DNA of 16,051 nt from a virus (IMGVR_UViG_2541047805_000003:1-16051); one strand, 5' to 3'; shown: positions 3,378 to 16,051, counted from the first letter of the stretch. Notes: a model not told the origin generated them from the letters alone. Made by a program: numbers and translations.

Positions 3378-5159
3378 TCATTTAAAACGTGTTGCAATAT
3401 CTGCTGCTTCGATAACTGTTGCTTTTACGGTATTATCGCCAGCACGATAATAAATATCCCCATCATAACTAGAATAAGATGCTAGAAGTGGAATTGTAAT
3501 AACTATAACTCCATAACCATAAAAGTCATTATAGTCAATCAAACTCACCACTTGTGATTTAAGAGGCTCACTCAAAGCAGATTTTTTCAACTCATCGCAA
3601 AAACGTCTATAATATTCTTCCATTGATATGCCGAGTTTAATAGCTTCTCTTTTAACACCAACAACACTTCTCTCACCAACTACATGTGCATCTATATCAT
3701 CAAGCTCTTTTACTCTACTTGTATCACTTGGTTTATCTGTTACACCAAGCAATAACTTACCAACTACACCGTTCTTGTTACCTTTACCGATGTTAGCAAT
3801 AGCACAAATTGTGGAGAATATTTTCTCATGAATGCCATCATCAATAGTTCGCTCTCCGCCTAACATCAACAAACCCTGTTTCAGTTCATAATTTGCAAGC
3901 TCTATTTCAGATCTTCGTAAAATATCCTCAATATCCACCGTATTGTGAGAATTATAGATATGACTGCTATCGGCGCTATCAATAAAGTTATCTTTAATCA
4001 AGCCTATGATAGAATTAATATTCTTTCTTCTCTCTTCCCCACCAGTAGCAGATCTTTTAGTATCTAGTCGAGTGACTATATTATTAAGATTGTCTTTTAC
4101 ACCTTTATAATTATTAATCTTCTTATTTTCTTTAATGAGTAATTCATGAAAAGCAATAAATAACACAGCAAATATGGCTGGGAAAGCATTTGTAGTACGT
4201 TTAGTAAAGATTAAATCCCTGAGTTTAATTTCACCGTCACTATTACATACTTTTGTTATTTCCTGGATGCAGAATTTAAACTCTTCTGCAAATTTTCCTT
4301 CACCATAAACATTAATAGCAGAGCTAATACGACTATACTCTTCATCTTCATTATTATAAATCTGATCAAGCGCATCTTTGGAACGATCTATTAACTTACC
4401 TCCAACAATACAAGCTGCTATATCTGCAATGCATTGCTCATCCATACTGTCACGAAGGTCTGTTGAACGTAAGATCCCATGTTTTACCCAAAATACTTCT
4501 TCCGACTGAATTTGGTAACCATGTTTAGTTAGTGGCAAATCAATGCTAATAGACGGCATTTGCTCTAAAAGCAATATGTCGTCAGATACATCCCCCCTGA
4601 TAGAACAGGCAATATCCCTAACCATATTTGAAAATTTATTTTGTATACCAGCCTGGCGCCTTTCTTGATCACTAAGTCTATGCCCGTATGTATTAATTCT
4701 ATCAAAAACATCATTTATTTCGTTCTCAGTCGCATTACGCATAATGGACATTGCAAGAGAATAATCCAATAACTGAGTAACCTCACGCTGACTTAAAAGA
4801 TTATCAGCTTTCACTGCAACAAACTTACCTTCATCCGCTCGATTTTTCGCTGTGGGAAAAGCGTCCAGATTAAAACGTTTTCCATCAAGTGATTCATATC
4901 CTGTTTCGATGAAAGACATTATTGCATGTAATCTTTGTAGGCCATCAATTATTTCATATGTGCCAGGATCATTTTCCCTTTCCGCGAGAAGAACTGCAGG
5001 AATTGGATATTTTTTTTGAATGGATTCAATTAATTTTTGTTTCTCTATTGCAGTCCAAACTAATTTTCGTTGATAACGTCTATTAACAAATATCTTACCT
5101 TCAGTAAACCATGAATAAATAGTTTGTATAGAAGTTGTTTGCGGTAATAGTTCAGCCAT
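3378..5159 (-). CDS. DUF262 (ParB/GmrS-like NTP-binding) domain protein with an uncharacterised C-terminal half; candidate defence protein
   Basis: 593 aa, ATG with AAGGAA about 9 nt upstream. N-terminus has the DUF262 hallmarks YQRKLVW and IIDGLQRL (DGQQR-like). No DUF1524/His-Me finger motif seen in the C-terminal ~350 aa. Coding sequence is markedly AT-rich compared with the flanking phage genes. Confidence 0.75.
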   Translation of the reverse strand: MAELLPQTTSIQTIYSWFTEGKIFVNRRYQRKLVWTAIEKQKLIESIQKKYPIPAVLLAERENDPGTYEIIDGLQRLHAIMSFIETGYESLDGKRFNLDAFPTAKNRADEGKFVAVKADNLLSQREVTQLLDYSLAMSIMRNATENEINDVFDRINTYGHRLSDQERRQAGIQNKFSNMVRDIACSIRGDVSDDILLLEQMPSISIDLPLTKHGYQIQSEEVFWVKHGILRSTDLRDSMDEQCIADIAACIVGGKLIDRSKDALDQIYNNEDEEYSRISSAINVYGEGKFAEEFKFCIQEITKVCNSDGEIKLRDLIFTKRTTNAFPAIFAVLFIAFHELLIKENKKINNYKGVKDNLNNIVTRLDTKRSATGGEERRKNINSIIGLIKDNFIDSADSSHIYNSHNTVDIEDILRRSEIELANYELKQGLLMLGGERTIDDGIHEKIFSTICAIANIGKGNKNGVVGKLLLGVTDKPSDTSRVKELDDIDAHVVGERSVVGVKREAIKLGISMEEYYRRFCDELKKSALSEPLKSQVVSLIDYNDFYGYGVIVITIPLLASYSSYDGDIYYRAGDNTVKATVIEAADIATRFK

Positions 5160-5293
5160 GAAACAAATTCCTTCTTCTGGATAGAATTTTATAATATAGA
5201 AACTGAAAAGGTTAAGTTACCATCAAAAATGATGATAGCAACAAAAAGATACCATTTTGTAATTTTTTGTTCAGATTTTCATATCAGAGCGCG

Positions 5294-5312
5294 CTCGTAT
5301 CCCCGCCACGCC
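5294..5312. other. cos-like sequence (186/P2-type cohesive-end motif)
   Basis: The minus strand reads GGCGTGGCGGGGATACGAG; the first 13 nt match the 186 cohesive end (GGCGTGGCGGGGA...) as I remember it. It lies in a short GC-rich islet inside otherwise AT-rich cargo, between replication gene A and portal Q, where P2-family cos is expected. Confidence 0.4.
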
Positions 5313-5361
5313 TGCCCGCTTTATGTAGTGGTTTTCATGCAGGTGCATGACATAAGCAAAA

Positions 5362-5381
5362 GCCCGCCAGTTCTGGCGGGC
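5362..5381 (-). terminator. Candidate intrinsic terminator downstream of the two-gene operon
   Basis: gcccgcc (5362-5368), loop agttct, ggcgggc (5375-5381), followed on the minus strand by TTTTGCTTATG. Lies 146 nt downstream of the membrane-protein gene and upstream of the DUF262 gene promoter region. Confidence 0.45.
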
Positions 5382-5526
5382 CTCAGCAAAAACGATCCTA
5401 AAACGATCATGCGGATTCATGCAGCATAGACATGCAAAGCTTGTTAGAACGGTGATTCCCATGTTAAAGGAGGCTTACTCTTGTTGAGGTTAAACATCCA
5501 CAGTAACTCCTGCCAATACGAACACT

Positions 5527-6063
5527 TTATTCATCATAGTGTTCTAATTTCGCTTTTGCTAAACGTCCATGTAAGTGATTAACAAAATGTAAATTACTCA
5601 AAATCAGGCTCATAACGCATTTTAATTGCATCCAGCTAATAAAGTAAATGAAGAAAATACCAATGTATTTAAACAAGTCTTTATTAGCTTGATAAACAGG
5701 TAATGCATAAAACACTGCCTTAACCAAAAAGAAAATTAGAATCCCAGCCATAACACAAGCAGATGTGATTATTGTATAAACTAATTTCTCTATTCTTGGT
5801 GAGTCATGCTCATTTTTTATATAACTTACATCATCCTTAACAATACTATTCATTGCATTCGGATATAAAAAACCGACCCATAAACCGACAATAGTGAATA
5901 TAGATGCTGAAATATTTATAAGCGCACCTAAAATATCTTTTGCATCATTATAGGAAAAACTTTTGAACGAAAAATAGCTTATAACGCAGCACAAAACAAC
6001 AGCAACAAAATTAATCGCCTGCTGTTTTGCAACTGTTATTATCAAACCTTCCGTTTCTGTCAT
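5527..6063 (-). CDS. Small multi-pass membrane protein (about 4 predicted TM helices); candidate effector
   Basis: 178 aa. Hydrophobic stretches INFVAVVLCCVISYFSF, ILGALINISASIFTIVGLWVGFLY, LVYTIITSACVMAGILIFFLV and YIGIFFIYFISWMQLKCVMSLILS. ATG at 6063 sits 1 nt after the upstream stop (TGATATG on the minus strand) with a GGAAGG SD inside the upstream gene. AT-rich. Confidence 0.75.
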   Translation of the reverse strand: MTETEGLIITVAKQQAINFVAVVLCCVISYFSFKSFSYNDAKDILGALINISASIFTIVGLWVGFLYPNAMNSIVKDDVSYIKNEHDSPRIEKLVYTIITSACVMAGILIFFLVKAVFYALPVYQANKDLFKYIGIFFIYFISWMQLKCVMSLILSNLHFVNHLHGRLAKAKLEHYDE

Positions 6064-6064
6064 A

Positions 6065-7264
6065 TCAACCTTCCGCTATCTTTTTTGTGGATGCAGCTTC
6101 AGATTCTTTAATGGATGCTTCCTCAGCATATTTTACTTCACTAATCAAATCATCACGAATTTTGTTTATTTCATCCAGTAAAAAACGCGCTGAATAATGC
6201 TCAAACCCATCCGAATCTTGAAGAGGAAGTTTAGTCCTGGCTACATAGCTACTGAGCCAAACCGGATTAGCACGATCAGCCAGTAAAAAACCCACATCCC
6301 ATTCAGACTCTTCACCTCTCATTGAGAAGAGATTTCGAAGCTCATCCGATGATGGTGCACCGTCAATTTTAACTTCAATTTTACGAGGCTGCTCCAAAAC
6401 AGGAGGTGCCCCAATAAGCTTATTACGCTTTTCTTCACCCACCAGAGATGCTAAAGCTACACTTGTTAGCTTCAACAATGGTTGCCTTGTGTCATTTTGG
6501 TTTATTACCGTTGTATCCTTTATCAATGTGTGTGTAATTTTATGCCTTAACCTTTCAAAGTTTTCCTCAGCGGCTTTAAGTTTTGTTTCTTCCAATACAA
6601 ACTTGAAGATACAGTTTATCTCATTTTTGCCATCTTTATATTGAAACTTAGTATTGTAGACATCCACACAACGACCAGGGGTCTTAGCTGATTCAAATGT
6701 ACGCTTAGATTTCGTTCTTTTACCTAACTTACTATTATTATTTACATGCTGAATGAAGTATTGTGCGAAGAGATAAGTATCAGCGAAAGAATGGGGGAAT
6801 CTGATTGATGCTATTTTATTCAACTCAGGAATAATCCAGTAATAGCAGGGTTCACCCCAAATTATTTTATCCTCACCATGTTCTCTTCCCGCCCTAATGG
6901 TTCCTTTACTATCACCACTTACTTTAGAACCGACCTTAATACCATGTATTCCGTTACCGTTCCCCACTTCACGGTATAAAACAATTACTGCATCTTTAGT
7001 CTGGCTGTCCCTCACAAGGCCTCGACTGTAAACTCGTGTTCGCAGAGGTTGTTCTTCTTTATTCCATGGGAGAGTCTGCTCAAAATTTTTATCCTTGAGC
7101 CACCCTTCTAAATCGTCCAAAACCCCCATAAGATCGCCGAATTTATAATCAAGCTCTTCGGGTTTATTCTTTAAACGATAAAACCCACAAGCAGTAATAT
7201 CAAAGAAGGTGATTGAGCCGTTGTCCACTAAAACTCCTTTTTGCCAAAGCAACACACGATACAT
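6065..7264 (-). CDS. Hypothetical 399-aa soluble protein, no recognisable family; first gene of a two-gene operon with the membrane protein
   Basis: Long AT-rich ORF with an ATG start and a weak SD. Translationally coupled to the downstream membrane-protein gene. One R-x4-H match (RHKITH) is the only motif noticed, and that is weak. Confidence 0.7.
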   Translation of the reverse strand: MYRVLLWQKGVLVDNGSITFFDITACGFYRLKNKPEELDYKFGDLMGVLDDLEGWLKDKNFEQTLPWNKEEQPLRTRVYSRGLVRDSQTKDAVIVLYREVGNGNGIHGIKVGSKVSGDSKGTIRAGREHGEDKIIWGEPCYYWIIPELNKIASIRFPHSFADTYLFAQYFIQHVNNNSKLGKRTKSKRTFESAKTPGRCVDVYNTKFQYKDGKNEINCIFKFVLEETKLKAAEENFERLRHKITHTLIKDTTVINQNDTRQPLLKLTSVALASLVGEEKRNKLIGAPPVLEQPRKIEVKIDGAPSSDELRNLFSMRGEESEWDVGFLLADRANPVWLSSYVARTKLPLQDSDGFEHYSARFLLDEINKIRDDLISEVKYAEEASIKESEAASTKKIAEG

Positions 7265-7429
7265 TTTTCACGTATACCATCAGAATCGTCCCTAAACTTC
7301 AAGTTACTTATGATAATCAAGAAAGCTGTCGAATGTTGTTGCATAGGCCAAAGTTTCAGGGGAACAAGGCATTCTTAAATCACTTTTCACTACCCGTTTC
7401 TAACGCCTCACGCGGCTCGTTGTTCAACC

Positions 7430-7464
7430 TTGCGGACGATAAAAACCAGTTTTATCGTCCGCAA
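7430..7464. repeat. Perfect 15-bp inverted repeat with a 5-nt loop
   Basis: ttgcggacgataaaa (7430-7444), accag, ttttatcgtccgcaa (7450-7464). Lies immediately 3' of the DinI-like gene and in the upstream region of the 399-aa gene. No U-tract follows on either strand. Confidence 0.6.
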
Positions 7465-7470
7465 CGTTCG

Positions 7471-7704
7471 CTAGTGTAACCAGCTGTCGTCCTCCCAGAC
7501 CTTCTGCATAATTTTCATCACTTGTTTTCTTTCTTCGTCCAGTTGCAGTCCGGTCAGTTCCACACCGTTAGAGCTACCTTTGCGGATACGAATTACCGTT
7601 TTGGGATACAGGGGGCGCAGATTGCGGTAAAGCTCGGATTCAAGGGCGTCCAGTGTAGACTGGCTAATCTTCTGCTCTTTATCGATCATTATTTCAATGC
7701 GCAT
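7471..7704 (-). CDS. DinI-like protein (DNA-damage-inducible protein I family; 186 Tum C-terminal-like)
   Basis: 77 aa from the ATG at 7704 (GAGGTG SD). MRIEIMIDKE...LDALESEL...VWEDDSWL aligns along its length with E. coli DinI (MRIEVTIAK...IDALAGEL...TWESADDWF) as remembered. Confidence 0.75.
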   Translation of the reverse strand: MRIEIMIDKEQKISQSTLDALESELYRNLRPLYPKTVIRIRKGSSNGVELTGLQLDEERKQVMKIMQKVWEDDSWLH

Positions 7705-7714
7705 AAAAGTCACC

Positions 7715-7903
7715 TCAGCTGATGACATCCATTGAGCGGTTGTATTCATGGGTTCTGATTTTTGCCATGAGTTCATCTGTCAGTTCAGAAACCCACTGCA
7801 GGGCCAGCCCCTTCTCTTCATCACTACACTCACTAGCCGCTACAAGCTTAAGAAAAAAATCAATGCGCTGGAGCTTCAAAGACTCCAAAAAATAGTCCTG
7901 CAT
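7715..7903 (-). CDS. Hypothetical 62-aa protein, first gene of the LexA-boxed operon
   Basis: ATG at 7903 with AGGAGG 4 nt upstream; ends 11 nt before the DinI-like start. No recognisable motif. Confidence 0.5.
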   Translation of the reverse strand: MQDYFLESLKLQRIDFFLKLVAASECSDEEKGLALQWVSELTDELMAKIRTHEYNRSMDVIS

Positions 7904-7945
7904 CTTTCCTCCTATGACACCAAAGCAATACTGTATACATAACCA

Positions 7946-7961
7946 CTGTTTATATTTACAG
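7946..7961 (-). promoter_or_regulatory. LexA (SOS) box CTGT-N8-ACAG, with an adjacent imperfect box at 7931-7946
   Basis: ctgtttatatttacag fits CTGT-N8-ACAG with an AT-rich centre. The neighbouring tactgtatacataaccac has a perfect left half only. Located 43-58 bp upstream of the 62-aa ORF start, in the A to DinI intergenic region. Confidence 0.65.
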
Positions 7962-8055
7962 TATATAATAATCTTACTGATGTAAAACGTTTTTTTACGT
8001 TCATCAGCCTGGTATGCCTGGTATTATTAAGAGCACGAATTGTTAACCCGCGTAA

Positions 8056-10428
8056 TTAATACAGATCCCGCCACTTATCATCTTCCTGCAAACGCTGGTT
8101 CCGATAGAAGATACGCAGGCCTGCTCCTGACGGAATACTGCCACCGCGAAGGAGTAAATCGACCTCTTTCTCGCTGCCATCAAATCCTCTGGACTTCAGT
8201 TCATAGACGAGCTGCTGTCGCTGATGATCTGTAATTCGCTGTTTGTAGTCTCTACGCCGTTTCGGTTTCACCAGGCGTAACCTTGCAGCCAGTTCCCGGC
8301 GCTCTTTTTTGTTCATACTGTGCAGGTAATCGTGCAATTCCTTGTCATCCATGCGGGTGATATCCGTTCTGGTATCCCCATCAGCTGATTTGTCTTTCCC
8401 TTGTTGGTACAAATTTTCAGCAAGGGGACAGTTATTGCCACGAGTCCAAGGGGCGCAAGCGCCCTGGTCGGCTGCCGCCTCCTGAACATCAACGGCCTTA
8501 CGAACCATTTTCCACTTCACGGCATGAGTGCAGATCTTGCCCTCTGCAATAGGTGACCAGATGCCATAAATACGAATGCCGTGATCGCCATAGGCGGTCG
8601 GCTCTTCGTTGATTTCATAAGCGGTTCTGATGAGGTGATATTTGCGGGGAACCAGTACGCCGCCCTGCTTCATGATGTAGGTGGCAAAACAACCAGCATC
8701 AGCAGCAGCCAGGATGGCATCAAGGCGCGGGTTATCCAGTACCGGCGCACCTGCTTTTTTGTCCCCCTGTTGCCTTGCCGCCTGACCAGCCAGCAATCGC
8801 AGTTCACGGTAAGCCTGACGCCCCGGAATGCCAAAGAAGCGGAATTGCTGAACACGATGCAGAGACGCCCAGGCATTAACGTATTCAGCATTATCACGCA
8901 GGGATTTCCCCGTTTCCTTGCTGATCTCGCCAGCCAGACCACGCCCGTCAATGTTCTTACTGATGTATTTCGCGATGTAGCTTGTTGGCGTACCTTTGCG
9001 CGGGTTAATCAACTCAGACTTAAAGCGCGGCCCAGTGTTATTGCCCAGTTCCTCGCGGTCTTCACGGATGGCAAACTTACGCAGTAATGCAGTGATGGCG
9101 CGGCGGTCTTTTTTGCGCATAAAACACAACAGGTGCCAGTGAACTGTACCGTCATGATGCGGCTCAGCCACCCGCACGCCATACCACCGCAATCCGGCTT
9201 TGTGCATCGCCTTACGAAATGCAGCAAACATGCCGACCAGATAATCACTGCTTTGTCTTACCGTCGCATTTGTCCAAGTTGGGTTGGGCCTGCCATTATT
9301 TAGCGTGGAATGGAAACGTGACGGACAGGTGATGGTGTAGAAAACGGCGCAGTCACCGCGCATTTCCGCGATAAGCTCCAGGCCTTTAACACAGGCCATC
9401 ATCTCATTGCGGCGATGCGCAGGGTTGCTGCTGCTGGCGTTTACCACATCCTCCATGTCCAGCGTGTCGCCGTCTTCGTTCACCAGTTCATGAGAACGAA
9501 AAAACTCCAGCGACTTACGGCGCTGCTCACGTTTATGCATCACGGCTTCATAGCTGACATAGGGAGATGCTTTTTTGCTGACCAGGCAGACAGCACGCAA
9601 CTGCTCTTCCCGCCATTCGCAACGCATCTTCCATAATTTCCGGTACCACCAGTCAGCGCACAACATACGCGCCAGCGAACCCGGAATGAGTTCATAGGGC
9701 ACGGGTTTACGGCGGTTTCTTTTCCGGCGGAGTTGCTCAAACGCAGGCGGGATGACATCCAGACGCAGGGTTTCCGCTGCCACCTTTTCCCATGTCTTGC
9801 GGATTTCTTCTGGCTTAACGTCATCGGTGACATACAAATCGCCACAAGCTGCATCAAGGCACATGCTCATATGCGCAGCTACCAGGGTGGACAGGCGTTT
9901 CACCTGATCCTGACTCATTTCAGGCAGGATCAGCAGGCCGTCCAGCCCTTCATGGCTTGCCATAAAGCGAAAAGAAGTGGATAGCTGACAGTCGCGTACA
10001 TGCTCCAGCCGTTCCAGACATGGCTTAATCGTCTCACGCAAATAGCGGGAATAAGCCTTTGGCCTGCCCAGGCTGCTGAAGTATTCAATACGTTGCATCA
10101 GCGGCTTGCTGATATGGGAAGGCTGGGCATTGACGTCCGCCAGAATGACCATATCTGGATTAAAACGCTGCTGCTCATGCGCCAGCTTTGCCCGACTAAT
10201 GAGCTTATCCTGCTCCATTTCGCGCTGGACAGGATCACGGGATTCATTAAAGAAATAACGCTCCCAGACCTGATCACTCAGTGCCTCGCGGCGCAGCTGT
10301 TCCTGCTCGTTATCGGCAGCGTACAGAGCGATCAGATTTGAAAGCGCAGAAACTGAAGATTGCTCTTCTGTCTCTACGTAAGGATTGATTGCTTTTTTCT
10401 CAGCATTCCAGGAATAGCTGTAGTTCAT
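8056..10428 (-). CDS. Replication initiation protein (P2/186 gpA family rolling-circle endonuclease)
   Basis: About 790 aa with the HUH-type motif [15 protein letters not shown] and the active-site tyrosine motif [14 protein letters not shown]. Start taken as the ATG at 10428 (GGAG SD; TAATG overlap with the upstream stop) rather than the TTG at 10479 listed in the ORF track. Confidence 0.88.
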
Positions 10429-11258
10429 TACGCAATCTCCAGTTCGAGCTGTGAAGGCTGCAAACCATTCGACAGCCAATCAGAAACTGAAGGTGGGCGA
10501 ACAGCTTCAATTGCACCTTTTAAAATTGCGCAACGGTTTTTCAGAATGACAGCTTTCAGCTCCTTTTCCGTCAGATTGCGCGAATACTCAGCCTCCTGAA
10601 TAGCCCGCGTCAGCTCAGGATATTTGCTATTAAATTTGGGGACATTGCAGGCAAGATTTGTACTGTCGGCAGTCGCCAGTGGGTAATTTCCCAACACACG
10701 ACCGTCAAGCATGCGCAAACCATGAACAGCTGTTTTGAAATTGTGTCGGCAATAAATTGCTTCAAAAGCGTCCTGCATACGACGATGCCAGTGCGCAGTT
10801 CTGATAGCCGCATATTCACCAGACGATCCAAAGCAGACACGAGGCCATTCACGACATAGCTCGATAAGCCGATCGATTGACTCGTGCAGATGCCAGACGG
10901 GAGTTGCCTTCCCGTAGAACATTTTCGGAACTTCGTTTATCAGGGCATCATTGTCACGTTCACCTCCGTCCACAACATCAGGAATGACAAAAAAAGCGAC
11001 CTTAGGATGGTGGTAATAGTTCAGGAGCCATTTATAAAAATCACTCCAGTTAATTTTTAGCCCACGCACCCATGCAGAAAATGCGCCGTTATCAATGCCG
11101 ACGACCTGAGCGTGCTGAATGGACGCCGCAATCTGATCTGGTCGTACATAGGAGACGAAAGCGCCAGCTCCGCTCACCGCAATACGATGAACGTCGCCAG
11201 CACTTCCCCAGACAGGCGTCCCATGGAAATGATGAATTCCGTGGTGCATTTCTTTCAC
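10428..11258 (-). CDS. Hypothetical 276-aa protein, translationally coupled between Dam and gene A; function unknown
   Basis: GTG start at 11258 overlapping the Dam stop (GTGA), or ATG at 11249. His/Trp-rich N-terminus ([10 protein letters not shown]). No confident motif match. Confidence 0.65.
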
Positions 11259-13910: not shown

Positions 13911-14035
13911 GATGCAACATTCCTCGTTTAATGATGATTAATCAGGACGAATACGGATCGTTTGTATTTTGTGAACACCATAAACATACGATCGCACAGT
14001 GAAATCGTCAAGATAAAAGTTCACTTGGAGTGACC
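13911..14035. promoter_or_regulatory. Lysis-lysogeny switch region between divergent apl-like and cI-like genes
   Basis: 125-bp AT-rich intergenic region containing the inverted repeat gtgaac (13971-13976) / gttcac (14019-14024) and several gtgaa half-sites. By analogy with 186/P2, convergent promoters and operators are expected here. Confidence 0.45.
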
Positions 14036-14605
14036 ATGAATTTGGAGAAAGGCGGACGAGGCGCTATAGAGCGCATGGTAGAAGCTTATGGATTCAAAAC
14101 TCGACAGGCGTTGTGCGATCATTTAGGAATCTCTAAAAGTACACTCGCCACACGCTACATGCGTGACTCATTCCCAGCAGAATGGGTAATCCAGTGCGCC
14201 CTTGAAACGGGCACCTCGCTTAATTGGCTCACAACCGGACATGGTTCAAAGCAAACTTCAGGTAATACAAATACTATGGAAGTTGCTAAATATGTATTAT
14301 CTGATGGTGCCTTGCGTGAAGACGGTTTTTATATTTTTGATAAGGGATTTCTACCCTCTACGTTTAAAAAACCTTTTGTCATCACAGATAACAATTCTGA
14401 ATTTATTTGTGATAAAGAATTTGATGATATACGTGACGGTAAATGGGTAATAAGTATTGATGGCGAAATAACAATCCGCGACATTACTCGTTTACCCGGT
14501 GGAAGAATCTTCGTTGAAGGTGGAAACAGAGCCTTCGAGTGCAAGATAGAAGATGTTGAAATAATTGGGAAAATTATAAGTTTAACAATTAAGTACGTTA
14601 GGTAA
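14036..14605 (+). CDS. CI-type immunity repressor (186 CI-like)
   Basis: 189 aa from the ATG at 14036 (GGAG SD). N-terminal HTH (TRQALCDHLGISKSTLATRYMR); divergent from apl/cII; upstream of and co-oriented with int. Confidence 0.78.
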   Translation: MNLEKGGRGAIERMVEAYGFKTRQALCDHLGISKSTLATRYMRDSFPAEWVIQCALETGTSLNWLTTGHGSKQTSGNTNTMEVAKYVLSDGALREDGFYIFDKGFLPSTFKKPFVITDNNSEFICDKEFDDIRDGKWVISIDGEITIRDITRLPGGRIFVEGGNRAFECKIEDVEIIGKIISLTIKYVR

Positions 14606-14620
14606 TACCGGGAGGAAACT

Positions 14621-14812
14621 ATGCTTGGTAAGGTATTTTTTGTGGTTTTATCATGCTCTTTGTTATTAAACCCACTAACTACCTATGCTAAAAATTATCC
14701 TTGTTCTGGGAAAAAGGGAGGTGTCTCTCACTGTACCTCCGATGGAAAGTTCGTTTGCAATGATGGAACTATTAGTAAATCAAAAAAAATCTGTACTAAA
14801 AACTCGCGATAA
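14621..14812 (+). CDS. Small secreted cysteine-rich peptide (63 aa), candidate moron in the lysogenic operon
   Basis: Strong RBS GGAGG 5 nt upstream. N-terminal signal peptide ([23 protein letters not shown]) and a roughly 40-aa mature region with four Cys. Lies between cI and int on the same strand. Confidence 0.5.
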
Positions 14813-14998
14813 ATTTTGCTTTTATATCTGCGCCTAATATAACAATGAGCCGCAGGCTAACCGCAAAAGTCACATACTCACATAGCAAAAAATAGCCAAC
14901 TTCATTATGGCTTCAGTGAGATGTATGGTCGCAGGATTTCATACATTGACACTGGTTATATATACAGTAAAGATGCTCTCTATTGGAGGGCATTTTTT

Positions 14999-16051
14999 AT
15001 GGCAGTACGAAAACTCACCACAGGAAAATGGCTTTGCGAATGTTACCCCGCCGGACGTAGTGGGCGTCGTGTGCGTAAACAATTCGCCACCAAAGGCGAA
15101 GCTCTGGCTTTTGAGCGCCATACGATGGAAGAAACCGAAGCAAAGCCCTGGCTGGGAGAATCAGTGGATCGTCGAACACTGAAAGACGTGGTTGAGCTAT
15201 GGTTCAAACTACATGGTAAATCTCTAACCGCTGGGCAGCATGTCTATGATAAATTGCTGTTGATGGTTGACGCTCTGGGCAATCCCCTTGCAACCGATCT
15301 CACCTCTAAAATGTTTGCCCACTATCGAGATAAACGCCTGACAGGTGAGATCTACTTCAGCGAGAAATGGAAGAAAGGAGCAAGCCCGGTCACCATTAAC
15401 CTGGAGCAAAGCTATCTAAGTAGTGTTTTTAGCGAACTATCCCGCCTGGGCGAATGGTCGTATCCAAACCCACTGGAGAACATGCGAAAATTCACCATCG
15501 CAGAAAAAGAGATGGCATGGCTTACCCATGAGCAGATTGTTGAACTGCTGGCTGATTGCAAACGTCAGGACCCAATTCTGGCACTGGTAGTCAAGATATG
15601 CTTAAGCACAGGCGCACGCTGGCGAGAAGCAATAAACCTTACCCGATCACAGGTGACTAAATACCGAATTACCTTTGTAAGAACGAAGGGGAAGAAAAAC
15701 AGAAGCATCCCTATCAGTAAAGAGCTTTATGAAGAGATCATGGCGCTTGATGGGTTCAATTTCTTCACAGACTGCTATTTTCAATTTTTATCCGTGATGG
15801 AAAAAACGTCAATCGTGCTCCCTCGCGGTCAACTGACACACGTTCTGCGCCATACGTTTGCGGCGCATTTCATGATGTCGGGTGGAAATATCCTTGCTTT
15901 GCAAAAAATCCTCGGACATCACGATATAAAAATGACTATGCGTTACGCTCATCTGGCACCGGATCATCTGGAAACGGCGCTCCGTTTCAATCCTCTGGCA
16001 ACGCTGCCAAGTGGCGACAAAGTGGCGGCAGCGGTTGGCATTACCCCGTAA
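14999..16051 (+). CDS. int: Tyrosine integrase (P2/186 Int family)
   Basis: 350 aa from the ATG at 14999 (SD ggaggg; the track's upstream start at 14921 is rejected). N-terminus MAVRKLTTGKW...KQFATKGEALAFE is typical of P2-type Int; the C-terminal catalytic region has RHTFAAHF...MRYAHL. The gene ends at the window edge. Confidence 0.9.
   Translation: MAVRKLTTGKWLCECYPAGRSGRRVRKQFATKGEALAFERHTMEETEAKPWLGESVDRRTLKDVVELWFKLHGKSLTAGQHVYDKLLLMVDALGNPLATDLTSKMFAHYRDKRLTGEIYFSEKWKKGASPVTINLEQSYLSSVFSELSRLGEWSYPNPLENMRKFTIAEKEMAWLTHEQIVELLADCKRQDPILALVVKICLSTGARWREAINLTRSQVTKYRITFVRTKGKKNRSIPISKELYEEIMALDGFNFFTDCYFQFLSVMEKTSIVLPRGQLTHVLRHTFAAHFMMSGGNILALQKILGHHDIKMTMRYAHLAPDHLETALRFNPLATLPSGDKVAAAVGITP

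What the first reader, a model, noticed from the sequence alone, without database searches (positions are those of the whole stretch)
7471..7961. LexA-boxed two-ORF module ending in a DinI-like protein; possible split Tum-type antirepressor
A well-formed SOS box (ctgtttatatttacag) with an adjacent half-box precedes a 62-aa ORF and a 77-aa DinI-like ORF, directly downstream of replication gene A. That is the position of the LexA-controlled tum operon in phage 186, whose Tum antirepressor I recall as having a DinI-like C-terminal part. The two ORFs here are in different frames and together total about 140 aa. They could be two genuine genes or a frameshifted single tum-like gene; I cannot tell which from the sequence alone.
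Basis: partly seen in the sequence, partly recalled or inferred. Interest (0 to 1): 0.55.

Follow-up and report, generated by a model that had tools for sequence, protein, structure and literature searches.

The report
Split Tum antirepressor operon, Fels-2-type prophage
This is the DNA-damage switch of a common Fels-2/186-like prophage: a LexA-repressed pair of genes, a 62-aa antirepressor and a DinI-like protein, that is already described in the literature, so the finding is correct but ordinary.

Summary
There is a LexA box (7946-7961) and an overlapping second box (7931-7946). These precede a 62-aa ORF (7903..7715) and a 77-aa DinI-family ORF (7704..7471), directly downstream of a P2 gpA-type replicase.

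The two ORFs are genuine separate genes, not a frameshifted tum:
- dN/dS of the 62-aa ORF is 0.04-0.12.
- The same pair is annotated in Fels-2 and found in 1125 of 5426 complete E. coli genomes.
- The spacer length and frame between the two ORFs differ among lineages.

Together they correspond to phage 186 Tum. ORF77 is 41% identical to the Tum C-terminal half. The ORF62 family profile aligns to Tum residues 3-45 (hhalign 94.9%, E=4.7e-8).

This is already known. Lemire 2011, citing Bunny 2002, states that tum is split by a stop codon in Fels-2 and PSP3. In E. coli HS, deleting the 61/62-identical gene (ECHS_RS04495, 'tum') or making lexA non-inducible abolishes mitomycin C induction.

Minor additions from this work:
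- The 'half-box' is the second box of a colicin-E1/pesticin-type double LexA operator.
- The antirepressor domain occurs fused to, next to, or without DinI.
- Its type tracks the N-terminal domain of the CI repressor.

The parts
8056..10479 (-). Context: P2 gpA-type rolling-circle replication endonuclease. The module lies directly downstream of it.
   Evidence: Translation. Annotated as P2 gpA-like in Fels-2 and as replication endonuclease in E. coli UMNK88 and HS. gpA lies upstream of the ORF62 homologue in 25 of 28 genome loci.
7981..7986 (-). Putative -35 hexamer (TTTACA) of the p95-equivalent promoter.
   Evidence: Read from the sequence. It sits 17 nt upstream of TACTGT. The layout parallels the annotated 186 p95 promoter, with -35 TTCACA and -10 TACTGT inside the LexA site. 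This is inferred; the generic promoter scan did not call it.
7958..7963 (-). Putative -10 hexamer (TACTGT), lying inside LexA box 1.
   Evidence: It is the same hexamer as the annotated 186 p95 -10, and has the same relation to the LexA box. Inferred.
7946..7961 (-). LexA (SOS) box 1: CTGTAAATATAAACAG on the transcribed strand. The 20-mer is 7944-7963.
   Evidence: Unique CTGT-N8-ACAG in the window and 17/20 to the consensus. A CTG-N10-CAG box lies upstream of the ORF62 homologue in 24 of 28 divergent loci.
7931..7946 (-). LexA box 2: GTGGTTATGTATACAG, overlapping box 1 by one base.
   Evidence: 15/20 to the consensus. Conserved in Fels-2, MLG42, E. coli HS, L009, L010 and L015. The Fels-2 copy of the 42-nt double operator (97% identical to the window overall) is 88-90% identical to the colicin E1 and pesticin operators.
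7908..7913 (-). Shine-Dalgarno sequence AGGAGG of ORF62.
   Evidence: Read from the sequence. Conserved in relatives.
7715..7903 (-). ORF62: the antirepressor gene, equivalent to tumA and to the N-terminal domain of 186 Tum. 62 aa, predicted helical hairpin.
   Evidence: phrog_698 at E=3.6e-38. hhalign against 186 Tum gives 94.9%, E=4.7e-8. dN/dS is 0.04-0.12. 61/62 identical to ECHS_RS04495, the gene deleted as 'tum' in E. coli HS. AF2 pLDDT 85.7, helices 2-22 and 28-61.
7710..7716 (-). Shine-Dalgarno sequence GAGGTGA of ORF77, overlapping the TGA stop codon of ORF62.
   Evidence: Read from the sequence. Relatives have their own G-rich Shine-Dalgarno sequence in a spacer of different length.
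7471..7704 (-). ORF77: DinI-family protein, equivalent to tumB and to the C-terminal half of 186 Tum (Tum72).
   Evidence: Pfam DinI at E=6.6e-23. 41% identical to Tum 71-145. Matches E. coli DinI structure 1GHH at E=2.7e-6 over the full length, including the acidic C-terminal helix. dN/dS is about 0.1 or lower.
7426..7468 (-). Strong stem-loop directly after ORF77. Probable operon terminator, corresponding in position to 186 t95a.
   Evidence: RNA fold of -26.3 kcal/mol, z=-7.1. Hairpins of different sequence sit at the same place in relatives. There is no canonical T-tail, so efficiency is unknown.
14030..14605 (+). Presumed target: 186-type CI immunity repressor without a self-cleavage domain.
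   Evidence: Pfam Phage_CI_repr (E=2.8e-33) plus Phage_CI_C (E=2e-28), and no S24 peptidase domain. 32% identical to 186 CI over both domains. 95% identical to E. coli HS CI.

Best explanation
This is the SOS-induction operon of a Fels-2-like (186/P2-family) prophage, in the naturally split form of tum.

In the lysogen, LexA sits on a double operator made of two 16-bp boxes that overlap by one base. The operator covers the -10 region of a p95-type promoter and keeps the operon off. DNA damage activates RecA, LexA cleaves itself, and a bicistronic mRNA is made that ends at the hairpin at 7468-7426.

The first product, the 62-aa helical hairpin, is the antirepressor. It corresponds to the N-terminal domain of 186 Tum. 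It inactivates the non-cleavable 186-type CI repressor encoded at 14030-14605. That releases the early lytic promoter and starts excision and replication.

The second product is a DinI-like protein, corresponding to the C-terminal half of Tum (Tum72). It most likely binds RecA filaments and tunes the SOS signal during induction.

Shown here:
- the sequence elements and their conservation
- homology of both halves to Tum
- purifying selection on both ORFs

Shown in the literature for a 98%-identical orthologue:
- the 62-aa gene and cleavable LexA are both required for mitomycin C induction

Inferred:
- direct binding of CI by ORF62
- occupancy of both boxes by LexA
- the role of the DinI-like protein
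For: - Elements and coordinates.
- Prophage context: Fels-2 is 97% identical in DNA and annotates the same two genes. E. coli UMNK88 is 100% identical.
- ORF77 matches the Tum C-terminal half at 41% identity and DinI structure 1GHH.
- ORF62 matches the Tum N-terminal domain: hhalign E=4.7e-8; PHROG cross-hits; and tblastn of Tum runs through both ORFs in PSP3, where they are annotated tumA/tumB, and in MLG42.
- Purifying selection: dN/dS 0.04-0.12.
- LexA boxes lie upstream of 24 of 28 divergent family members, and 25 of 28 follow gpA.
- CI is 186-type and has no cleavage domain.
- Literature, split form: tum is split by a stop codon in Fels-2 and PSP3, and the PSP3 upstream half carries the antirepressor activity (PMC3121763).
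- Literature, genetics: 'tum' in E. coli HS is ECHS_RS04495, the 62-aa gene and 61/62 identical to ORF62. The deletion and lexA(Ind-) both abolish MMC induction (PMC12055606).
- Literature, expression: the Fels-2 gene STM2727 is induced 5.5-14.8-fold by a mutagen and is listed in the LexA regulon (PMC2225428).
- Literature, mechanism in 186: Tum is the anti-CI factor, made from the LexA-controlled p95 promoter, and acts by sequestering CI (PMC7708051).
Against: - No binding or footprint data exist for this exact sequence.
- Pairwise BLASTP finds no ORF62-Tum similarity, so that homology rests on profiles over about 43 residues.
- The generic sigma-70 scan does not call the promoter.
- The terminator hairpin lacks a T-tail.
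- Box 2 has G instead of the near-invariant C at its first position. Its function is inferred only from the colicin and pesticin parallel.
- Many family members lack the DinI-like gene, so it is dispensable for the core switch and its role here is uncertain.
Confidence: 0.9

Rival explanations
1. The two ORFs are the halves of a single tum gene recently broken by a frameshift. On this view it is a decaying pseudogene in a defective prophage.
For: The ORFs are in different frames and together total 139 aa, against 146 aa for Tum. The ORF77 frame stays open for 24 codons upstream of its ATG.
Against: - dN/dS of ORF62 is 0.04-0.12 at dS up to about 2.
- The same split occurs in Fels-2, PSP3, MLG42, E. 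coli HS and 1125 E. coli genomes.
- Spacers and frames vary between lineages, and each lineage has its own Shine-Dalgarno sequence for the second gene.
- No fused protein appears among the 66 significant representatives of the ORF62 clade.
- The E. coli HS prophage with this arrangement is inducible and produces infectious phage.
Confidence: 0.02
2. A fused, Tum-like full-length protein is also made at a low level. This would happen by +1 frameshifting here, or by stop-codon read-through in relatives where the ORFs are in frame. The fused protein, rather than ORF62 alone, would be the active antirepressor.
For: In PSP3, 613R3, MLG42, L010, L031 and L033 the two ORFs are in the same frame, separated by one stop codon plus 1-5 codons. 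In the window the ORF77 frame is open across the end of ORF62.
Against: - No slippery or shift-prone motif lies at the junction.
- The frame relation is not conserved: +1 in the Fels-2/E. coli clade and 0 elsewhere.
- Three of four spacer types being in frame is compatible with chance (my binomial estimate, p about 0.1).
- Most family members have no DinI-like gene downstream at all.
- In PSP3 the antirepressor activity is reported for the upstream gene alone.
Confidence: 0.04
3. ORF62 is not the antirepressor. On this view the module is simply an SOS-regulated DinI 'moron' with a small leader ORF, and induction runs through another route.
For: ORF62 has no Pfam, NCBIfam or PADLOC hit and is annotated 'hypothetical protein' by RefSeq. 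DinI homologues are common SOS-regulated prophage cargo, for example in the Gifsy phages.
Against: - The profile homology to the Tum N-terminal domain.
- Deleting the 62-aa orthologue from start to stop codon blocks induction in E. coli HS.
- CI has no self-cleavage domain, so an antirepressor is needed.
- Family members keep the LexA box and the position after gpA even where DinI is absent.
Confidence: 0.03

Closest known systems
Fels-2 STM2728 / STM2727 (listed as STM2726.1 in the phage record) and E. coli HS prophage DuoHS 'tum' (ECHS_RS04495) plus its DinI-like gene (ECHS_RS04500)
   Same: The same module. DNA is 97% (Fels-2) and about 95% (HS) identical. ORF62 is 61/62 identical to the HS protein, and the ORF77 protein accession is identical in UMNK88 and HS. 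The double LexA operator and the position after gpA are the same.
   Different: Only point substitutions, and different cargo downstream of the operon. Here the cargo is PDC-M18A/B plus a GmrSD-like gene, whereas Fels-2 carries a 243-aa hypothetical gene of the same length as 186 orf97 (its homology to orf97 was not tested).
Coliphage 186 Tum (orf95) and the p95 SOS operon
   Same: Same position after gene A. A LexA-controlled promoter whose -10 hexamer TACTGT lies inside the box. An N-terminal antirepressor domain and a C-terminal DinI-like domain. A 186-type CI repressor as target.
   Different: - In 186 the two domains are one 146-aa polypeptide joined by a linker of about 25 aa. The DinI-like part is additionally made from internal starts.
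- 186 has a single LexA box, where this module has two.
- The N-terminal domains share only about 19% identity.
- 186 has orf97 downstream.
Phage PSP3 tumA / tumB
   Same: The same split architecture, with a separate antirepressor gene and DinI-like gene. The record annotates them as 'similar to 5' end 186 tum; UV induction of prophage' and 'similar to dinI and 3' end of 186 tum'. The upstream half is reported as the antirepressor.
   Different: - TumA belongs to a different subfamily, phrog_1993. ORF62 hits it only at E=2.2e-3, and hhalign gives E=0.005.
- The PSP3 ORFs are in frame and 3 nt apart, with a TAG stop codon.
- PSP3 has a single LexA box.
Double overlapping SOS boxes of the colicin E1 (cea) and pesticin (pst) promoters
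   Same: Two 16-bp boxes share one G, with the junction CAGTGGTT. Identity is 88-90% over about 42 nt between the Fels-2 copy of the operator (97% identical to the window overall) and the colicin E1 and pesticin operators. Colicin operators of this kind are described as binding two LexA dimers and giving very tight repression (PMC2994835).
   Different: Here the operator controls a prophage antirepressor rather than a bacteriocin. LexA occupancy of the second box is not tested for this promoter.
E. coli DinI (PDB 1GHH, 7YWA)
   Same: ORF77 aligns over its full length, including the acidic C-terminal helix (E=2.7e-6). It matches Pfam DinI well above the gathering threshold.
   Different: It scores below the NCBIfam equivalog cut-off (42.7 against 111 bits). 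It is therefore a phage paralogue, not chromosomal dinI.

Membership tests
186-type Tum antirepressor system (LexA-controlled antirepressor of a non-cleavable CI) | Promoter overlapped by a LexA binding site | tested here: met
   CTGT-N8-ACAG at 7946-7961, 17/20 to the consensus, overlapping the putative -10 exactly as in 186 p95. The box is conserved upstream of 24 of 28 family members. This is sequence evidence only.
186-type Tum antirepressor system (LexA-controlled antirepressor of a non-cleavable CI) | Gene located directly downstream of replication gene A in a P2/186-like genome | tested here: met
   gpA is 10479..8056 and ORF62 starts 152 nt downstream. The order is the same in 186, Fels-2, PSP3 and E. 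coli HS, and in 25 of 28 genome loci.
186-type Tum antirepressor system (LexA-controlled antirepressor of a non-cleavable CI) | Homology to the N-terminal (antirepressor) part of Tum | tested here: met
   hhalign of the ORF62 family against 186 Tum gives probability 94.9%, E=4.7e-8, residues 3-45 to 3-45. Tum 1-70 hits phrog_698 at E=6.7e-6, and both proteins hit phrog_8554. Pairwise BLASTP is negative.
186-type Tum antirepressor system (LexA-controlled antirepressor of a non-cleavable CI) | Single polypeptide carrying both the antirepressor and DinI-like domains, as in 186 Tum | tested here: not met
   There are two ORFs with a stop codon, a 10-nt spacer and separate Shine-Dalgarno sequences. 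This matches the split tumA/tumB form of PSP3 and Fels-2, not the fused 186 form.
186-type Tum antirepressor system (LexA-controlled antirepressor of a non-cleavable CI) | Cognate 186-type CI repressor lacking a RecA-stimulated self-cleavage domain | tested here: met
   The ORF at 14030-14605 has PF07022 plus PF16452, no Peptidase_S24 domain, and is 32% identical to 186 CI.
186-type Tum antirepressor system (LexA-controlled antirepressor of a non-cleavable CI) | Protein binds CI and prevents operator binding; required for SOS induction | not testable with these tools
   The requirement for induction is shown in the literature for the 61/62-identical E. coli HS gene (PMC12055606). CI binding is shown only for 186 Tum (cited).
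DinI family (PF06183) | Sequence match above the curated Pfam threshold over the whole domain | tested here: met
   81.3 bits against a 24.2-bit cut-off, covering profile positions 1-63 of 63. It also aligns to 1GHH over residues 1-75.
DinI family (PF06183) | Binding to RecA filaments and modulation of co-protease activity | not testable with these tools
   Inferred from family membership and from the 186 record note 'modulates SOS induction' for the truncated Tum forms.
Colicin-type double (overlapping) SOS operator | Two 16-bp LexA boxes overlapping by one or two bases | tested here: met
   Boxes at 7946-7961 and 7931-7946 share position 7946. The Fels-2 copy of the operator, which is 97% identical to the window overall, is 88-90% identical over 42 nt to the ColE1 cea and pesticin operators.
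Colicin-type double (overlapping) SOS operator | Two LexA dimers bind, giving tighter or delayed derepression | not testable with these tools
   Stated for colicin genes in PMC2994835. Not tested for this promoter.

The most novel reading that the evidence does not exclude
The Fels-2-type switch may differ from 186 in two ways that have not been described, as far as the literature I could search shows.

(1) Its promoter carries a bacteriocin-type double LexA operator. Induction would then be a late, high-threshold and possibly bimodal SOS event rather than an early one.

(2) The 62-aa antirepressor may recognise the conserved N-terminal DNA-binding domain of CI. Phages with ORF62 at 98% identity or more carry CI proteins whose N-terminal domains are 68-74% identical but whose C-terminal domains are only 26-37% identical. 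One antirepressor could therefore cross-induce prophages that differ in the rest of CI.
Probability: 0.3. Interest if true: 0.35.

Novelty: already known. Interest (0 to 1): 0.15.

Why it matters
The module decides whether a very common E. coli, Salmonella and Klebsiella prophage (about one in five complete E. coli genomes) leaves the chromosome after DNA damage, for example after quinolones or mitomycin C. That induction mobilises the prophage's cargo, here candidate defence genes.

The biology is established: 186 Tum, Fels-2 in lexA-null lethality, and the E. coli HS DuoHS deletion. The practical value is therefore annotation. RefSeq still labels the 62-aa antirepressor 'hypothetical protein', and it has no Pfam or NCBIfam model.

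The double operator and the apparent link between antirepressor type and the CI N-terminal domain are modest, testable refinements.

Tried and rejected
- Pairwise BLASTP of ORF62 against 186 Tum and against PSP3 TumA found nothing. TumA against Tum also gave nothing, so BLASTP is simply too insensitive for these 60-aa domains. Profiles were needed.
- Pfam, NCBIfam and PADLOC have no model for ORF62.
- No PDB chain resembles the ORF62 family by sequence. Foldseek of the AF2 model against the PDB gave only generic helical hairpins and no match at E<=0.001.
- Rfam found nothing in the window.
- The generic promoter scan found no sigma-70 site. Its one 'terminator' call, at the ORF62/ORF77 junction (7726-7709), is not significant when folded (z=-0.85) and is not conserved outside the Fels-2 clade. 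I do not propose it as a coupling element.
- The first related-loci run with the broad alignment failed because there was no conserved stretch. A narrower alignment worked.
- One literature search (TumA/TumB as whole words) returned only irrelevant hits. Bunny, Liu & Roth 2002 is not in the held library, so it is cited only through Lemire 2011.
- 'Levan regulatory protein' labels on some ORF62 homologues have no support from any profile and were disregarded.
- The indels in the phage 500465-1 record that change its ORF calls look like sequence errors and were not used.

Full report
**1. The observation**

The module is on the minus strand. Read 5'->3' on that strand, it contains these elements in order:
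- the end of an 807-codon gpA-type replication endonuclease (10479..8056)
- a putative -35 hexamer TTTACA (7986..7981)
- 17 nt later, TACTGT (7963..7958), lying inside the SOS box CTGTAAATATAAACAG (7961..7946)
- a second box, GTGGTTATGTATACAG (7946..7931), sharing one G with the first
- AGGAGG, then a 62-codon ORF (7903..7715)
- a TGA stop codon overlapping GAGGTGA, then a 77-codon ORF (7704..7471)
- a strong hairpin at 7468..7426 (-26.3 kcal/mol, z=-7.1)

The strict pattern CTGT-N8-ACAG occurs once in the 16 kb window, against 0.17 expected. Its 20-mer matches the LexA consensus at 17/20, and the second box matches at 15/20. ORF77 is a clear DinI-family protein (Pfam E=6.6e-23; 1GHH E=2.7e-6).

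**2. Where the window comes from**

The window is a Fels-2-like (Peduoviridae) prophage.
- The module is 97% identical in DNA to Fels-2, which annotates the same two genes after its 'P2 gpA-like protein'.
- It is 100% identical to E. coli UMNK88.
- It is present in 1125 of 5426 complete E. coli genomes. RefSeq annotates it there as 'replication endonuclease | hypothetical protein | DinI-like family protein'.
- The rest of the window has the expected 186-type layout: int, a 186-type CI (PF07022+PF16452), a Cox/Apl-like protein, CII, Dam, gpA, this module, cargo, and then the portal gene.

**3. One broken gene or two genes?**

It is two genes.
- (a) Nei-Gojobori dN/dS of ORF62 against six orthologues is 0.04-0.12, at dS up to about 2. 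ORF77 is about 0.1 or lower.
- (b) The split is present in several divergent lineages with different junctions. PSP3 and 613R3 have a TAG stop codon, a 3-nt spacer and the same frame. MLG42 and L010 have TAG, a 9-12-nt spacer and the same frame. L031 and L033 have TAA, a 15-nt spacer and the same frame. Fels-2, E. coli HS and this window have TGA, a 10-nt spacer and the +1 frame. Each has its own Shine-Dalgarno sequence for the second gene.
- (c) An exhaustive HMMER search of 1.84 billion representatives gave 66 significant relatives of ORF62. None is fused to DinI.
- (d) Among 28 genome loci that encode an ORF62 relative, only 7 have a DinI-like gene downstream. The antirepressor gene therefore exists on its own.

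**4. Is it Tum?**

ORF77 aligns to 186 Tum residues 71-145 at 41% identity (E=3e-24).

ORF62 shows nothing by BLASTP, but three lines of evidence connect it to Tum:
- tblastn of Tum runs through both ORFs in MLG42, whose first ORF is 84% identical to ORF62, and in PSP3.
- A 27-sequence profile of the ORF62 family (A1) aligns to Tum 3-45 with hhalign probability 94.9%, E=4.7e-8.
- Tum residues 1-70 hit ORF62's own PHROG family (phrog_698, E=6.7e-6). Both proteins hit phrog_8554. ORF62 weakly hits the TumA family, phrog_1993, at 2.2e-3.

From the alignments, I read a shared motif of roughly E-x5-R-[IV]-x5-L-x5-C-x7-A-[LI]-x-[WL]-[IVL]-[AS]-E-[LI]. AlphaFold2 predicts a two-helix hairpin with the conserved Cys in the loop (pLDDT 85.7). 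No solved structure resembles it significantly.

The module therefore meets every tested defining feature of the Tum system except 'single polypeptide'. It is the split tumA/tumB form.

**5. It is already known**

- The PSP3 record names the two genes tumA ('similar to 5' end 186 tum; UV induction of prophage') and tumB ('similar to dinI and 3' end of 186 tum').
- Lemire et al. [quoted passage not shown] - In a Salmonella strain carrying Fels-2 (TA100), STM2727 is induced 5.5-14.8-fold by the mutagen MX and is listed with the LexA regulon. STM2726-STM2727-STM2728 behave as one operon (PMC2225428).
- Most directly, the Phollow study (PMC12055606) deleted 'tum' in the E. coli HS prophage DuoHS. 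The supplement gives locus tag ECHS_RS04495. That is the 189-nt gene between the replication endonuclease and the DinI-like gene, and it is 61/62 identical to ORF62 with the same operator. The tum deletion and lexA(Ind-) both abolish MMC-induced lysis and virion formation.
- For 186, Tum is the anti-CI factor made from LexA-regulated p95 and acts by sequestering CI (PMC7708051).

**6. Mechanism**

I commit to the following chain, at confidence about 0.9. LexA on the operator keeps the operon silent. RecA-stimulated LexA cleavage releases it. ORF62 inactivates the non-cleavable 186-type CI, which is 32% identical to 186 CI and has no S24 domain. The lytic promoter then fires. ORF77 modulates RecA filaments.

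- Shown: the sequence elements, the homology, the purifying selection, and (in the literature, for the orthologue) the genetic requirement for the 62-aa gene and for cleavable LexA.
- Inferred: physical binding of CI by ORF62, the promoter hexamers, LexA occupancy of box 2, terminator function, and the DinI-like role.

**7. What this analysis adds**

*(i) The 'half-box' is part of a double operator.* It is the second half of a double, one-base-overlapping operator. I queried with the Fels-2 copy of the operator region, which is 97% identical to the window overall. It matches more than a thousand small Col-type plasmids. The 42-nt core is 88-90% identical to the colicin E1 promoter (ATGCTGTATATAAAACCAGTGGTTATATGTACAGTATT, upstream of METAVAYYKDGVPYDD...) and to the pesticin promoter of Yersinia pestis pPCP1. 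[quoted passage not shown]

The double box is confined to the Fels-2-like clade (window, Fels-2, HS, MLG42, L009, L010, L015). 186, PSP3 and the DinI-less relatives have one box. By analogy, the Fels-2 type should be repressed more tightly and induced later than 186. This is untested.

*(ii) The antirepressor domain is modular.* It is fused to DinI in 186, adjacent to it in Fels-2 and PSP3, and found alone in many Enterobacter, Klebsiella, Citrobacter, Pantoea and Brenneria prophages. In nearly all cases it follows gpA (25 of 28 loci) and has a LexA box upstream (24 of 28).

*(iii) The antirepressor type follows the CI N-terminal domain.* Phages whose ORF62 is 98% or more identical to the window's carry CI proteins that are only 38-48% identical overall. 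The divergence is lopsided. The HTH N-terminal domain is 68-74% identical, while the C-terminal domain is 26-37% identical, as far as 186 CI at 31%. 186 and PSP3, with other antirepressor subtypes, have N-terminal domains 40% and 46% identical.

This fits an antirepressor that targets the DNA-binding domain. It is equally explained by linkage: the 5' half of cI lies on the same side of a recombination breakpoint as the early operon. I treat it as a lead only.

**8. Verdict**

The feature is a textbook-level, experimentally characterised prophage induction module. Novelty is 'already known' and interest is low. Its residual value is annotating the 62-aa 'hypothetical protein' and testing the double operator.

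Noticed in passing
window 14950-14969 (+), with TTGACA at 14945-14950 and the int start at 15000: There is a second LexA-like box, CACTGGTTATATATACAGTA (CTG-N10-CAG, 17/20 to the consensus), directly after a consensus -35 TTGACA. It lies about 30 nt upstream of the likely true integrase start (GGAGGG-N7-ATG, MAVRKLTTGKW...; RefSeq calls the same start). No such match was seen in 200 shuffles of the window. The CTG/CAG core is kept in Klebsiella phage 4LV2017 (CACTGGTTATACACACAGTA), but the flanks are equally conserved there. It could be an SOS-controlled int promoter.
   Followed up: partly
window 3378-7264 (-): Cargo sits between the tum operon and the portal gene. It comprises a 399-aa plus 178-aa pair matching the PADLOC candidate defence system PDC-M18 A/B (E=5.9e-31 and 2.8e-18), and a 593-aa GmrSD_N/DUF262 protein (PF03235; PADLOC NsnA E=8e-31). 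Fels-2 and E. coli HS carry different genes at this spot, so it is a variable hotspot. Whether the SOS transcript reads through the hairpin into this cargo is unknown.
   Followed up: partly
window 14621-14812 (+): A small 63-aa ORF lies between cI and int. It has a hydrophobic N-terminus and several cysteines ([34 protein letters not shown]...). RefSeq annotates it as hypothetical or YdcA family. It separates int from cI, unlike in 186 where the two genes abut.
   Followed up: no
L016-L027 (Enterobacter, Klebsiella, Citrobacter etc. prophages), about 20-30 nt after the stop codon of the ORF62 homologue: In the DinI-less clade, the Shine-Dalgarno region (TGGGAGGGAGTT) is complementary to a sequence just after the stop codon (AACTCCCTCCCA). 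Duplex energies are -21 to -26 kcal/mol in 8 of the 10 loci folded and about -14 in the other two, with G-U-preserving changes (L018, L019). This could be a long-range stem enclosing the whole gene and masking its ribosome-binding site, or inverted repeats flanking the cassette. No such element exists in the window's mRNA.
   Followed up: partly
proteins P0147, P0149, P0152, P0155, P0169, P0172, P0177, P0181; loci L029, L030, L034: Many distant ORF62-family members carry a conserved glycine-rich C-terminal tail, approximately K-N-P-Q-x-G-G-x-S-G-G-x-x-L-Q, ending the protein. It is absent from the window's ORF62, and its function is unknown.
   Followed up: no
L003 (PSP3), L004 (MLG42), L006 (613R3), L010, L031, L033: In most other lineages the antirepressor and DinI-like ORFs are in the same frame, separated by one stop codon (TAG or TAA) plus 1-5 codons. 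Stop-codon read-through or an amber suppressor would therefore recreate a 186-like fused Tum. In the window's clade the second ORF is in the +1 frame instead.
   Followed up: partly
NC_019932 Erwinia phage ENT90, 13789-13971: 186 Tum residues 1-61 match at 62% identity a stand-alone 'putative prophage protein', with no DinI-like part in the match. This is another example of the N-terminal domain on its own.
   Followed up: no
L005 (Escherichia phage 500465-1, NC_049342): This record has several single-base indels relative to all relatives within the two ORFs. As a result its annotation shows shifted, longer ORFs (291 and 318 nt). These are probably sequencing errors rather than biology.
   Followed up: no
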